Positions 46,301 to 49,300 of a DNA stretch of 64,000 nucleotides are shown here, piece by piece. A program made the position numbers. The DNA comes from Escherichia coli (GTDB lineage Bacteria > Pseudomonadota > Gammaproteobacteria > Enterobacterales > Enterobacteriaceae), in NCBI RefSeq assembly GCF_030013205.1, contig NZ_CP122648.1. One strand, 5' to 3'. The first letter of the stretch is position 1. Each line of letters opens with the position of its first letter.

Positions 46301-49300
46301 CAGCGTCGCTGGATTGACCTGAACGCCAGCAGCAACATGCTGCAAAGTAAATCCGTGCGCCTTACGCACATTCCGTAATGGTGATTGCATATGACCTCCA
46401 CATATTGCGTGATGAGCATATTATTTCACGCAAATATTTTGCGCAAGTTGATTTGCTTAACGCGCAATAAAGAAATGTAATAAACGCATGAACATAGGAA
46501 ACCGAGTCAGACAACTTCGCCAGGCGAAGAACATGAAAATCGCCGATCTCGCTGAAGCAATAGGAGTGGATGCGGCGAATATCTCACGCCTGGAAACAGG
46601 TAAGCAGAAACAATTCACTGAACAAGCCCTGAGTAATATTGCCAAGAGCTTAGGTGTTGATATTGCTGATCTCTTTACCTCAGACTTCAAAAGTAATACT
46701 GTATGTAAAAACAGTATTAGTGAGGATGTTGCGCAGGTGAAGGATGTATTCCGTATTGAAATGCTGGATGTCAGTGCCAGTGCGGGAAATGGCCTTATCC
46801 AGGGCGGTGATGTCATTGATGTGATTCATGCCATTGAATACAGAACTGATAATGCTGTATCGATGTTTGGTGGACGGCCAGCCAATCACATTAAAGTTAT
46901 CAACGTTCGTGGGGACAGTATGTGTCCAACCATTGAGCCAGGAGATCTCATCTTCGTTGATGTCAGTATCAATCAGTTTGATGGAGATGGTATCTATGTA
47001 TTTGGTTTTGATGATAAAATTTATGTCAAACGACTGCAAATGATACCTGACAAACTACTGGTGATTTCTGATAACCAGATTTACCGTGAATGGGGAATTA
47101 CCAGCGAAAATGAACACCGGTTTATGGTCTTTGGAAAGGTCTTAATCAGCCAGTCACAAACCCTTAAGCGACACAATTAACCCTTACCTCCTCATCAATT
47201 AGCCACCCAAAGGTGGCTTTTCATCACCCTTTAAATTGCATATCTCGCAACAAAAACACTTGCATAATGCGCAACTTCATTTTATCTTTCTTTCCAGACA
47301 AACAAACAAGGTACTAACAAAATTTGGTTGTAACACGGCGTATGGCACATGCGTCGTTAGCGGTCTGGGGACGTTAAAGGGGACAATCCACTCCTTGCTC
47401 GGGCAAACAAACCAGGTAGCCGGAATGTGCAAGTCAATGATGATGCTGATAAGACGCCTAACCAGCGTGGCGATTCGGTTTGACGCCTGGGAAGAGACCA
47501 GGGTGCAACGATGAGGGCATTTATGGAGCCGCGACAAAGTGTGGTGCCGTAACTGGCTAAGTGCTCTCAGCGTTGTGGTAATCCGCGAAATGGCGCGGCG
47601 GTAAGTATGGCGGGGTTACTCTTTCCCCGTTGAGGACACCGGATTGTCAGGTTGACCATACGCCTGAGTGACAACCCCACCACAACAGCCACTGCTTTGG
47701 CGGTACCAGTTTGTACCCTTGCTTCCGGCTGGTACCGCTCTTTTTACAAAACAGAGAAGAGCATCACCGGACGACGAGCTCATAACCCAATCCATCCGGG
47801 CGGCTGCCACCGCAGGTGTTCTTCTCCGTTTTGTGGAGAAACCAACCGACCTTGCAGGGTCGATATGATGAGGAGCAGCAAAATGGCTAGCGAACGCAGT
47901 ACTGATGTGCAGGCATTTATTGGGGAGCTGGACGGCGGCGTATTTGAAACCAAAATCGGCGCAGTTCTCAGTGAAGTCGCTTCCGGTGTGATGAACACGA
48001 AAACCAAAGGTAAGGTCTCGCTCAACCTGGAAATCGAACCGTTTGATGAGAATCGTGTGAAAATCAAACACAAACTCTCGTATGTTCGCCCGACTAACCG
48101 CGGGAAAATTTCCGAAGAAGACACCACCGAAACGCCGATGTATGTCAATCGCGGTGGTCGCCTGACTATTCTGCAGGAAGACCAGGGACAATTACTGACT
48201 CTTGCTGGTGAACCTGACGGAAAACTCCGCGCAGCAGGTCATTAATATCGTTCTTAATTAACTGATTATTTATCTCATCACTGAATATCTTTATATAGTG
48301 AGGACTTATTATGTCTCAGAACTTAGACGCAACCGCAATTAATCAAATCCATGCCCTTATTTCTGCTCAGGGTGTTAATGAAATTATCAGTAAGATTGGT
48401 GCCGATGCTGTGGCATTGCCTGAGAATTTCCGCATTCATGATCTGGAAAAATTTAATTTAAATCGCTTCCGTTTCCGTGGTGCGCTTTCCACTGCCAGCA
48501 TCGATGACTTTACCCGTTATTCTAAAGATCTTGCAGATGAAGGCACCCGCTGCTTTATCGATGCTGATAATATGCGTGCCGTCAGTGTGCTTAACCTGGG
48601 TACTATTGATGAACCAGGTCACGCAGATAACACCGCCACTCTCAAACTGAAAAAGACAGCACCGTTCTCTGCTCTGTTGTCTGTTAATGGCGAGCGTAAC
48701 TCCCAGAAATCACTGGCAGAATGGATTGAAGACTGGGCCGACTACCTTGTGGGCTTTGATGCTAATGGTGACACCATTCAGGCAACCAAAGCGGCTGCGG
48801 CAGTCCGTAAAATCACAATTGAAGCAAACCAGACCGCTGATTTTGAAGACAATGACTTCAGCGGCAAACGCTCCCTGATGGAGTCTGTCGAAGCGAAAAC
48901 CAAAGACATTATGCCAGTGGCATTTGAATTTAAATGCGTTCCGTTTGAAGGCCTGAAAGAACGTCCGTTTAAATTACGCCTCAGCATTATCACTGGCGAT
49001 CGTCCTGTACTGGTTCTGCGCATTATTCAGCTGGAAGCGATGCAGGAAGAAATGGCTAACGAATTTCGTGATCTGCTTGTTGAGAAATTCAAAGACAGCA
49101 AAGTAGAAACCTTTATTGGTACTTTCACCGCCTGATTTCATTACTGCAAATGCCCCTGCGGGGGCATTTATGGAAACGTAATTAACTCAATAATCACCGG
49201 ATGGTGAGAGCTTCCTTTTAGCAGAATTCAGCGCGGTGCAGCGCATATAAAGTGGAGAACTAAATGTCATTTATTAAAACTTTTTCCGGGAAGCATTTTT

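What the first reader, a model, noticed from the sequence alone, without database searches (positions are those of the whole stretch)
47181..47882. GC-rich non-coding stretch between cI-like gene and the next early gene
About 700 bp downstream of the cI-like gene has no convincing ORF with a ribosome-binding site; the two roughly 90-codon ORFs overlap on opposite strands and lack RBSs. The sequence is GC-rich relative to the prophage and has several potential stem-loops. In lambda this side of the immunity region holds pL, nutL and N, so this could hold a nut-like site or a small RNA.
Basis: inference. Interest (0 to 1): 0.3.

Follow-up and report, generated by a model that had tools for sequence, protein, structure and literature searches.

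The report
Phage early-leader array of structured RNAs
The 700-base gap after the prophage repressor gene is not junk or a hidden gene: it is a chain of folded RNA modules. One is a cousin of the known cell-division regulator DicF. Another is a widespread, pseudoknotted RNA that matches no catalogued family in Rfam.

Summary
Window 47181-47882 has no conserved reading frame, is richer in G+C than its neighbours, and is densely structured.

It reads as the untranslated leader of the early-left (pL) operon of a lambdoid prophage, in this order:
- the cI terminator
- a pL-like promoter flanked by two TTGC-N7-GCAA operators
- module A (47331-47508), an RNA with four covarying helices and two proposed pseudoknots
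- hairpin H1
- module B, homologous to the 5' part of the 190-nt DicF precursor of E. coli K-12 and to P1's annotated "dicF-like region"
- module C, a DicF-scaffold terminator hairpin with a different loop
- hairpin H2
- the yfdP ribosome-binding site

Module A belongs to a large family. It occurs in 1828 of 5426 complete E. coli genomes, in phage P1, in Stx phages and in phiV10-like phages. It has no Rfam match, carries no annotation in the hit rows I inspected, and the string searches I ran found it in no paper. In 79% of loci a DicF-type terminator follows it.

There is no N gene and no true nut site. A put-like antitermination role for A is possible but unproven.

The parts
47201..47222 (+). 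Intrinsic terminator of the cI-like gene: GCCACCC-AAA-GGUGGC followed by UUUU.
   Evidence: Fold gives -11.8 kcal/mol, z = -3.9, with 0 of 200 shuffles folding as well. A terminator-like site was also reported nearby by the scan.
47236..47274 (+). Two operator-like sites of the form TTGC-N7-GCAA, at 47236-47250 and 47260-47274. The same motif occurs at 46453 between cro and cI.
   Evidence: The pattern search gave 6 matches in the 64-kb window, 3 of them in the immunity region; 2.45 were expected by chance. Binding by the repressor is inferred.
47260..47288 (+). Candidate pL promoter: -35 TTGCAT (47260-65), a 17-nt spacer, and -10 TATCTT (47283-88). The transcription start is predicted near 47295.
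   Evidence: Read from the sequence. The same operator/-35 and TATCTT arrangement sits just upstream of module A in loci L058, L097, L101 and L102. It matches only 7 of 12 consensus positions and was not called by the scan, so it is an inference.
47331..47508 (+). Module A core, a conserved RNA.
- P1 helix: 47336-40 with 47352-56.
- PK1 (proposed pseudoknot): the P1 loop GGCACAU (47345-50) with AUGUGC (47425-30).
- P2 helix: 47360-67 with 47413-20.
- P4 helix: 47454-57 with 47465-68.
- PK2 (proposed pseudoknot): the P4 loop AACC (47460-63) with GGUU (47477-80).
- P5 helix: 47486-90 with 47498-502, closing the loop GAAGAGA.
   Evidence: The covariance model built from 94 relatives hits here at 159.5 bits, E = 2e-51. 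Rfam gives no match at E <= 10.
47506..47575 (+). Hairpin H1 (CAAC-GAU-GAGGGCA ... UGCUCUC-AGC-GUUG), a long imperfect stem. It is proposed to be an RNase III processing site that separates A from B-C.
   Evidence: Fold gives -31.3 kcal/mol, z = -4.3. The same hairpin type directly follows the A core in at least 96 of 143 loci. The equivalent hairpin in K-12 (L002 2923-3006) carries, in its 3' strand, the published RNase III cut that makes the 190-nt pre-DicF (position estimated from the reported length).
47572..47686 (+). Module B, a cloverleaf-like unit. A closing stem (GUUGUGGU 47572-79 with ACCACAAC 47679-86) encloses three arms. It is homologous to the 5' part of the 190-nt DicF precursor of Qin and to P1's 'dicF-like region'.
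   Evidence: About 93% identity to K-12 just upstream of dicF. The consensus fold has 7 of 26 pairs with compensatory change. It occupies the slot that tRNA-Arg holds in phiV10-like loci.
47687..47746 (+). Module C, a DicF-scaffold small RNA and intrinsic terminator. It begins UUUGGCGGUACCAG, has the loop UUUGUACCCUUGCUUCCGG, closes with CUGGUACCGC and ends in U5 (stem 47699-47739, U-tract 47741-45).
   Evidence: Fold gives -21.2 kcal/mol, z = -4.3. It shares UUUGGCGGUAYCAGUUU with DicF at the same position after module B. It does not match the Rfam DicF model, whereas K-12 DicF scores 76.7 bits.
47747..47833 (+). Hairpin H2 (ACAAAAC-A-GAGAAGAGCAUC ... GGUGUUCUUCUC-C-GUUUUGU), of the same kind as H1. 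It is followed by the conserved string UGGAGAAACCAAC.
   Evidence: Fold gives -35.8 kcal/mol, z = -3.4. It is conserved upstream of yfdP-like genes in many phages, including SfIV, ST64B and phiNP. Relatives show compensatory stems.
47847..47885 (+). yfdP translation-initiation region: a small hairpin at 47847-62, the Shine-Dalgarno sequence GAGGAG at 47870-75, and ATG at 47883.
   Evidence: Sequence, fold, RefSeq annotation of the identical locus, and a PHROG hit for YfdP.

Best explanation
The stretch is the untranslated leader of the repressor-controlled early-left (pL) operon. It works as a polycistronic array of structured RNA modules.

Shown:
- It is non-coding.
- It consists of modules A, H1, B, C and H2, each conserved and each re-used in other combinations in other phages.
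- A has a covariation-supported fold.
- B plus C is the positional homologue of the 190-nt DicF precursor.
- C is a strong intrinsic terminator placed upstream of yfdP.

Inferred:
- When cI is inactivated, transcription starts near 47295 and runs through A-H1-B-C.
- Most polymerases stop at C, giving a primary RNA of about 450 nt. The fraction that reads through expresses yfdPQRS.
- RNase III cuts the long H1 stem, as it does at the equivalent hairpin in the K-12 dicBF transcript. This releases a 5' RNA containing A and a B-C RNA of about 185 nt.
- The DicF-type 3' hairpin with its U-tail then acts as an Hfq-type base-pairing small RNA on host messages. Its loop differs from DicF, so ftsZ need not be the target.

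Role of A: A is the most conserved and most complex module. My committed guess, at about 0.3 probability, is that it binds a conserved host machine. RNA polymerase is the favoured candidate. On that reading A protects the long untranslated transcript from Rho and modulates read-through, as HK022 put RNA does. Its function is otherwise open.
For: Non-coding status.

Mosaic structure: different parts of the query match different elements.
- A matches the P1 trnI-ban spacer, D6-like plasmids and phiV10-like morons.
- B matches the Qin dicF upstream region and the P1 Pban leader.

Structure of A: 30 pairs, 98.9% of cells paired, 13 pairs with compensatory changes, 0 of 500 shuffles reaching the observed values, and slid controls at 29-45%. 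G-U wobbles place the fold on the + strand.

Prevalence of A: 1828 of 5426 complete E. coli genomes, with no annotated feature under any of the hit rows shown. Other Enterobacteriaceae also carry it.

Coupling of A to a terminator: 92 of 116 distinct A loci have a DicF-scaffold terminator downstream on the same strand, against 3 on the opposite strand. Its median end lies 331 nt after the A motif, and 34 different loop sequences occur.

Processing: published northern and primer-extension work shows that the 190-nt DicF species needs RNase III and the 53-nt species needs RNase E. The K-12 hairpin is folded, and H1 follows A in at least 96 of 143 loci.

Promoter placement: in many relatives module A begins about 10 nt after a -10 element.

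Resemblance to put: the put stem-I core A-CGGCG...CAUG-CGUCG..AGCG recurs in A's P1 helix.
Against: - No transcript data exist for this locus. The pL promoter matches only 7 of 12 consensus positions and was not called by the scan.
- The RNase III site in H1 is inferred by homology of position, and the K-12 cut was mapped here only from the reported length.
- C does not match the Rfam DicF model and lacks DicF's 5' seed. Its small-RNA role is inferred from scaffold and position only.
- Against a put-like role for A:
  - The A model does not detect HK022 or HK639 put.
  - Local alignment to put is marginal (12-22 of 500 shuffles) for one A subfamily and absent for others.
  - A sometimes lies mid-array (L250, L266) or after a tRNA directly before ban in P1.
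  - The same C terminator plus yfdP operon exists without A (L005), and Qin has B-DicF-dicB without A.
- B's fold is not better than shuffles in energy (z = -0.5) and its covariation is modest.
Confidence: 0.6

Rival explanations
1. Module A is a cis-acting, put-type processive antiterminator, and that is the main purpose of the region. The nascent RNA would bind the beta-prime zinc-binding domain of RNA polymerase. Transcription would then ignore Rho and the C terminator, replacing the missing N protein.
For: - No N-like ORF lies between cI and yfdP.
- A sits directly after promoters in most loci and upstream of a strong terminator in 79% of loci.
- The transcript is long and untranslated, so it would otherwise be exposed to Rho (established knowledge).
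- A's P1 helix and the flanking CAUG and AGCG repeat the put stem-I core that contacts polymerase.
- HK639 has an annotated putL-like RNA at the same genomic position.
Against: - The covariance model of A does not find put.
- The sequence resemblance is marginal or absent, depending on the A subfamily.
- A is 170 nt or more with two pseudoknots, unlike the 70-nt two-stem put.
- A also occurs mid-array and after tRNA-Ile in P1.
- The same terminator-plus-operon occurs without A.
Confidence: 0.25
2. Module A is an autonomous trans-acting RNA gene and the other modules are unrelated cargo. It could be a decoy or sponge for a host protein or RNA, or a ribozyme or ligand-binding RNA. On this reading the arrays are simply gene clusters for stable RNAs, like phage tRNA clusters.
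For: - A is bounded by processing-type hairpins like the other units.
- It keeps invariant loop and junction sequences (UAUGGCACAUG, GGUAGCCGGAAUGUGCAAG, GGAAGAG) while its stems covary, as expected for a binding or catalytic surface.
- It appears in very different genomic contexts: pL leaders, morons between terminase and portal genes, and the P1 ban operon.
- Neighbouring units include real tRNAs and STnc100-like small RNAs.
Against: - No partner, ligand or cleavage site can be proposed from sequence.
- There is no match to any Rfam ribozyme or riboswitch.
- The strong preference for the first position after a promoter, and for a DicF-type terminator downstream, suggests linkage rather than independence.
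Confidence: 0.3
3. This is a lambda-type nutL site (boxA plus boxB) serving an N-like protein.
For: - The position is right, immediately downstream of pL.
- A's P5 hairpin has a purine-rich loop (GAAGAGA) reminiscent of the lambda nutL boxB loop GAAGA (from memory).
- UGCUCU in H1 resembles the start of boxA.
Against: - No N-like ORF is present.
- The P5 loop has 7 nt rather than 5.
- The boxA-like string is base-paired and covaries with its partner.
- The same elements occur in P1 and in phiV10-like phages, which are not lambdoid (taxonomy lines).
Confidence: 0.03
4. The stretch is decayed remnants with no present function, for example degraded tRNA genes or a dead early gene. Alternatively it is a DNA-level element such as a single-strand initiation site or a recombination site.
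For: - Module B and some neighbouring units in relatives look tRNA-like.
- Module boundaries share short repeats (GUUGUGG and CCACAAC) that could simply mark recombination joints.
- G-T pairs are also allowed in folded single-stranded DNA.
Against: - Compensatory changes and near-invariant loops are kept across 94 distinct sequences and several genera.
- A is present in a third of E. coli genomes at 76-100% identity.
- The orientation is consistent with promoters, tRNA genes and U-tract terminators.
- The K-12 homologue of B-C is a detected RNA.
Confidence: 0.05

Closest known systems
The dicF locus of the dicBF operon in Qin prophage, E. coli K-12 (DicF, Rfam RF00039, and its 190-nt precursor)
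   Same: - The genomic logic matches: repressor gene, operator-controlled leftward promoter, then an untranslated structured segment ending in a GGCGG...CCGCC-U5 terminator hairpin, upstream of early genes.
- Module B is about 93% identical to the K-12 sequence just 5' of DicF.
- An H-type hairpin precedes B in both.
- C shares UUUGGCGGUAYCAGUUU with DicF.
   Different: - C lacks DicF's 5' seed (UUUCUGGUGACG) and the loop reported to pair with ftsZ.
- C does not score with the DicF covariance model.
- There is no AU-rich RNase E site between B and C.
- Qin has ydfABC instead of module A upstream.
HK022 putL/putR and the HK639 putL-like antiterminator RNAs
   Same: - Both lie just downstream of pL in a lambdoid phage that has no N gene.
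- Both are nascent structured RNAs upstream of terminators.
- Both share the short core A-CGGCG...CAUG-CGUCG..AGCG and a hairpin with a GGAAGAG or GGAUGA loop.
   Different: - A is 2.5 times larger, with two proposed pseudoknots and two variable arms.
- There is no statistically sound sequence or model match.
- A also occurs away from promoters.
- Antitermination by A is untested.
The phage P1 ban operon leader (Pban, 'dicF-like region', tRNA-Asn/Thr, tciABC, tRNA-Ile, ban)
   Same: It contains both module B (right after Pban, annotated 'dicF-like region') and module A (the unannotated 185 nt between trnI and ban), under repressor control.
   Different: - The order is reversed and the two modules are separated by about 2 kb of tRNA genes and ORFs.
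- A is followed by a DicF-seed-like string and then ban, with no terminator.
- There is no H1 hairpin.
STnc100 (RF02076) and PasD prophage small RNAs
   Same: They are structured units closed by a GUGGUG...CACCAC(AAC)-type stem in lambdoid prophages. STnc100-like units occupy the same slot as module B in relatives (L005, L014, L020) and follow DicF in K-12.
   Different: No STnc100-like unit is present in this window. Pas small RNAs are described next to late and lysis genes, not in the pL leader.
Large structured phage RNAs of unknown function found next to tRNA genes (GOLLD, ROOL; from memory)
   Same: They are phage-borne, elaborately folded with pseudoknots, often adjacent to tRNA genes, and of unknown function.
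   Different: They are much larger (400-800 nt), occur in other bacterial phyla, and have no sequence or model similarity. Rfam contains them and gives no hit.

Membership tests
DicF small RNA (Rfam RF00039) | Scores above the family's gathering threshold (48 bits) with the DicF covariance model. | tested here: not met
   No hit at E <= 1 over 5 kb or at E <= 10 over 600 nt. K-12 DicF scores 76.7 bits in the same tool.
DicF small RNA (Rfam RF00039) | Lies at the 3' end of the conserved pre-DicF segment in the leftward early transcript of a lambdoid immunity region, and ends in a Rho-independent terminator. | tested here: met
   Module B homology and position are shown. The terminator hairpin plus U5 folds at -21.2 kcal/mol, z = -4.3.
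DicF small RNA (Rfam RF00039) | Carries the DicF pairing regions: the 5' UUUCUGGUGACG and the loop reported to pair with ftsZ. | tested here: not met
   The alignment shows the 5' seed is absent and the loop is unrelated. Which region pairs with which target rests and memory.
HK022-type put antiterminator RNA | Located just downstream of an early promoter and upstream of terminators, in a phage lacking N. | tested here: met
   The promoter itself is inferred.
HK022-type put antiterminator RNA | A two-stem RNA of about 70 nt with the conserved put sequence and structure. | tested here: not met
   A is 178 nt with four covarying helices plus two proposed pseudoknots. The A model finds nothing in the HK022 or HK639 loci. 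Local alignment is marginal. Only the stem-I core motif is shared.
HK022-type put antiterminator RNA | Suppresses termination in cis through the beta-prime zinc-binding domain of RNA polymerase. | not testable with these tools
   This needs reporter assays and rpoC mutants.
Lambda-type nut site | A free boxA plus a boxB hairpin with a 5-nt GNRA-like loop, together with an N gene downstream. | tested here: not met
   There is no ORF between cI and yfdP and no N-like Pfam match. The boxA-like string is paired within H1. The P5 loop has 7 nt.
tRNA (for module B) | Recognised by tRNA detectors, with a canonical cloverleaf, T-loop and anticodon loop. | tested here: not met
   ARAGORN finds nothing and the Rfam tRNA model gives no hit. 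B shares only the cloverleaf-like topology and the slot that tRNA-Arg occupies in relatives.
Any Rfam 15 family (for module A) | A significant covariance-model match. | tested here: not met
   on the window. on seven diverse loci found only the tRNA.

The most novel reading that the evidence does not exclude
Module A, with its H1 hairpin, would be a previously undescribed class of phage RNA: a 170-250-nt fold with two proposed pseudoknots and near-invariant loops. It is carried by P1, by Stx-converting and other lambdoid phages, by phiV10/epsilon15-like phages, and by about a third of E. coli genomes. It heads a conserved non-coding transcription unit of about 450 nt that ends in a fast-evolving DicF-type small RNA. 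On this reading it would have a mechanism of its own. For example, it could be a new RNA-only modifier of RNA polymerase or Rho that lets phages make long untranslated RNA arrays, or a processing or host-factor-capturing RNA. The GUUGUGG/CCACAAC-bounded units would form a cassette system for exchanging RNA genes between phages.
Probability: 0.3. Interest if true: 0.8.

Novelty: new variant of a known kind. Interest (0 to 1): 0.6.

Why it matters
- Annotation gap. RefSeq and GenBank leave this stretch blank or call spurious hypothetical proteins over it, in the hit rows inspected from thousands of E. coli genomes and in model phages such as P1.
- DicF as one member of a family. At least 34 terminator-loop variants sit behind a shared, processed scaffold. 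Temperate phages would thus carry a much larger and faster-evolving repertoire of host-targeting small RNAs than the one studied example.
- A concrete new RNA to test. Module A is supported by covariation, is very common, and has no assigned function. If it acts on RNA polymerase or Rho, it would be a second, structurally different RNA-only antitermination device after put. It would also explain how N-less lambdoid phages express their early-left genes.
- A route for RNA gene exchange. The shared boundary stems suggest how phages swap RNA genes (tRNAs, small RNAs, structured RNAs) as cassettes.

Tried and rejected
- Rfam at permissive thresholds, on the window and on seven relatives: only a tRNA, plus chance-level hits.
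- ARAGORN on the region: nothing.
- Hidden gene: rejected.
- put homology: the covariance model of A against HK022 and HK639 was negative. Shuffled local alignments were marginal or negative. It is kept only as a resemblance.
- BoxA reading of UGCUCU(U/C): rejected, because the string is the paired strand of H hairpins and changes together with its partner.
- Whole-region folding energy: not informative, since both strands give z of about -2.
- Terminator counts downstream of A against the antisense strand, using a generic hairpin+T finder: not discriminating, because such terminators read on both strands. This was replaced by the DicF-scaffold pattern.
- Full-length RNA duplex prediction of C or DicF against a recalled ftsZ leader: both gave similar unrealistic energies, so it was discarded.
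Only 11 loci proved true by the model, so the taxonomic range is a lower bound.
- Literature: string searches for module sequences found nothing relevant. The P1 genome paper and King 2011 are not held. The Pas small-RNA preprint concerns late-region small RNAs.
- Second copy of A in the window: none. Two hits at E of about 2 are chance.
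Full report
**Setting.** The window carries a lambdoid prophage immunity region.
- A 230-aa repressor with helix-turn-helix and Peptidase_S24 domains lies at 46488-47180 on the + strand. A divergent cro-like gene lies at 46130-46390 on the - strand.
- The next genes on the + strand are yfdP (47883-48245), yfdQ and yfdR. An identical locus in E. coli O55:H7 CB9615 is annotated the same way, with nothing annotated in between.
- The finding's coordinates (47181-47882) are exactly the gap between cI and yfdP.

**Is it non-coding?** Yes.
They have no Pfam or PHROG relatives.
- In 94 distinct homologues of the central part, no reading frame is open in more than 41% of members. 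The distances between conserved blocks are spread over all three residues modulo 3.
- yfdP has its own GAGGAG ribosome-binding site seven bases upstream of its ATG.
- G+C is 0.54-0.55 here against about 0.40-0.42 in cI. Other parts of the prophage are equally G+C-rich.

**The region is a mosaic.** Megablast of the 702 bases against 5426 complete E. coli genomes hits 4765 of them, but different parts hit different places. Reading those places gives the modules described below.

**Terminator, operators and promoter (47201-47288).**
- A hairpin followed by UUUU terminates cI.
- Two TTGC-N7-GCAA sites at 47236 and 47260 repeat a motif found at 46453 between cro and cI.
- The second site overlaps a -35 TTGCAT. 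After 17 nt comes a -10 TATCTT (47283-88).
- The same layout, with other operator sequences, precedes module A in several unrelated loci.
- This promoter matches only 7 of 12 consensus positions and the scan did not call it, so it is inferred.

**Module A (47331-47508): distribution.**
- It matches the unannotated 185 nt between tRNA-Ile and ban in phage P1.
- It matches a position just after tRNA-Ile in D6-like phage-plasmids.
- It matches a position just before tRNA-Arg in phiV10-like (Uetakevirus) phages and prophages.
- The 94 distinct cores align well, with conserved blocks separated by two variable arms.

**Module A: structure.** I proposed four helices and two pseudoknots and counted the pairs.
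- 98.9% of 2816 cells form standard pairs.
- 13 of 30 pairs show changes on both sides.
- All five measures beat 500 of 500 shuffles.
- Sliding the partners by 1-3 columns drops pairing to 29-45%.
- P1, P2, P4 and P5 each covary.
- PK2 has one covarying pair (C-G in 75 sequences, A-U in 18; the window has the A-U form).
- PK1 is invariant, so it is unproven. RNAalifold does choose it.
- Frequent G-U pairs put the fold on the + strand.

**Module A: family search.**
- A covariance model built from the alignment finds one copy in the window (159.5 bits) and the P1 copy. It finds none in the HK022, HK639 or Qin loci.
- Retrieving relatives by the 5' motif alone still gave the invariant 3' motif. 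True hits occurred only in Enterobacteriaceae: Citrobacter, Pseudescherichia, Pseudocitrobacter and Superficieibacter.
- blastn finds A in 1828 of 5426 complete E. coli genomes, with 551 places on plasmids. No listed hit had an annotated feature under the match.
- Rfam 15 gives nothing for A, in the window or in seven diverse loci.
- String searches of the held literature found nothing.

**Hairpin H1 (47506-47575).**
- It is a long imperfect stem with the pattern CAAC-N3-GAGRGCA ... UGCYCUC-N3-GUUG. It folds at -31.3 kcal/mol, z = -4.3.
- It directly follows the A core in at least 96 of 143 loci.
- The same kind of hairpin lies just 5' of module B in K-12.
- Published northern and primer-extension work shows that the 190-nt DicF species needs RNase III and the 53-nt species needs RNase E.
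- Counting 190 nt back from the DicF 3' end puts the RNase III cut in the 3' strand of that K-12 hairpin. By homology of position I therefore read H1 as an RNase III site. This is an inference.

**Module B (47572-47686).**
- It is about 93% identical to the K-12 sequence immediately upstream of dicF.
- It is also related to the start of the P1 ban leader, which the P1 record labels 'dicF-like region'.
- Its consensus fold is a closing stem (GUUGUGG with CCACAAC) plus three arms. Seven of 26 pairs have compensatory changes.
- In phiV10-like loci a real tRNA-Arg occupies exactly this slot. B itself is not a tRNA by ARAGORN or Rfam.
- The base of H1 and the closing stem of B compete for the same GUUG. 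Cleavage of H1 would free B to close.

**Module C (47687-47746).**
- It is a perfect 11-13-bp G+C-rich stem with a 19-nt loop, followed by U5. It folds at -21.2 kcal/mol, z = -4.3.
- It sits where DicF sits after B and shares UUUGGCGGUAYCAGUUU with it.
- It lacks DicF's 5' seed, has a different loop, and fails the DicF model, which scores K-12 DicF at 76.7 bits.
- Relatives show the same GGCGG...CCGCC-U scaffold with many different loops and 5' tails.
- In 92 of 116 distinct A loci such a terminator follows A on the same strand. Its median end is 331 nt after the A motif, and 34 loop variants occur. Only 3 such terminators lie on the opposite strand.
- A and a DicF-type terminator therefore mark the two ends of a conserved non-coding unit of about 450 nt.

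**Hairpin H2 (47747-47833) and the yfdP leader.**
- H2 is of the same type as H1 (-35.8 kcal/mol, z = -3.4).
- It is followed by the conserved UGGAGAAACCAAC, a small hairpin and the ribosome-binding site.
- This part is the most widespread. It lies upstream of yfdP-like genes in SfIV, ST64B, phiNP and thousands of E. coli genomes.
- Sometimes it lies behind other upstream modules. In L005, for example, an STnc100-like unit replaces A and B.

**The wider pattern.** Reading about 30 relatives shows arrays of units bounded by GUUGUGG ... CCACAAC stems and H-type hairpins. The units are A, B, real tRNAs, tRNA-like bodies, STnc100-like units and others, in varying order. The arrays usually end with a DicF-scaffold terminator. 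The window is one such array.

**How it probably works.**
- Shown: a non-coding, modular and structured region, with homology to a segment that is experimentally transcribed and processed in K-12.
- Inferred:
  - pL is repressed by cI in the lysogen.
  - On induction, an RNA of about 450 nt is made and mostly terminates at C.
  - RNase III separates A from B-C.
  - The B-C product acts like long or short DicF, but on other targets.
  - Read-through of C expresses yfdPQRS, so C doubles as an attenuator.

**What A does is open.**
- For a put-like role:
  - There is no N gene.
  - A usually lies right after the promoter and before a strong terminator.
  - The RNA is long and untranslated.
  - A's P1 helix with the flanking CAUG and AGCG repeats the HK022 put stem-I core, which contacts RNA polymerase.
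  - HK639 has an annotated putL-like RNA in the same place.
- Against a put-like role:
  - There is no model match.
  - Alignment statistics are marginal or absent.
  - A occurs mid-array or next to ban in P1.
  - The same terminator and operon occur without A.
- I put this role at about 0.25-0.3. An autonomous trans-acting role (decoy, ligand binder or ribozyme) is about as likely.

A nut/N system is not there.

**Novelty.** The DicF-type locus is a known kind, and C is a new variant of it. B is known only as an uncharacterised part of pre-DicF and as P1's 'dicF-like region'. A appears to be undescribed, in that it has no Rfam match and did not turn up in the literature I could search.

Noticed in passing
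L007 2700-2720 (phage P1 record, about 71209-71229): Directly after module A and upstream of ban, P1 has AUUUUCUGGUGAUGAC. This repeats the 5' seed of DicF (UUUCUGGUGA) but has no DicF terminator behind it.
   Followed up: no
L003 3320-3500; also L012, L015, L073, L110, L247, L335: In phiV10-like morons the order is promoter, A, H1, tRNA-Arg, a conserved AUCACG-CCUUAGGAC-CGUGAU hairpin, a DicF-scaffold terminator, and then a second terminator (GCUUCCAGUUCGCCC...) that P1 also has after module B.
   Followed up: partly
L005 2790-3050 (E. coli strain 123636): The same C small RNA and H2-yfdP leader as in the window follow an STnc100-like unit instead of A and B, behind a different repressor. Module swapping therefore happens at the GUUGUGG/CCACAAC joints.
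   Followed up: partly
window 50762-51781 (+), G+C about 0.33: A low-G+C 339-aa ORF after the early-left genes has a weak PADLOC match to Aga_REase-PNTD1-PNTD2 (E = 5e-7). In O55:H7 CB9615 the equivalent position holds the Dsr1 defence gene. It is a possible defence moron.
   Followed up: partly
GenBank records of phages mEp460, Ayreon, phiSTEC1575-Stx2k, JL22 and Tyrion (hits H97-H99, H110, H134, H149): 'Hypothetical protein' genes are annotated over module A or its relatives. Given the frame analysis, these look like miscalled ORFs.
   Followed up: no
L264 (1753-bp contig labelled 'MAG: Bacillota bacterium'): It carries a lambdoid pL-like operator and promoter and a full-score module A (157 bits). 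It is probably an enterobacterial phage contig binned into the wrong genome.
   Followed up: no
window 47652-48245 (+): The longest ORF containing yfdP starts at a TTG 231 nt upstream, inside modules B, C and H2, and has no ribosome-binding site. PHROG 204 aligns from profile position 18, so some database entries probably carry this false N-terminal extension.
   Followed up: partly
module B hairpin 2, window 47610-47634: The loop is pyrimidine-rich (UUACUCUUU here; UUAUUCCUU or UUUCCUCCAUUG in relatives) on a covarying stem. It resembles anti-Shine-Dalgarno-type seeds and might be a second pairing surface in the long B-C RNA.
   Followed up: no
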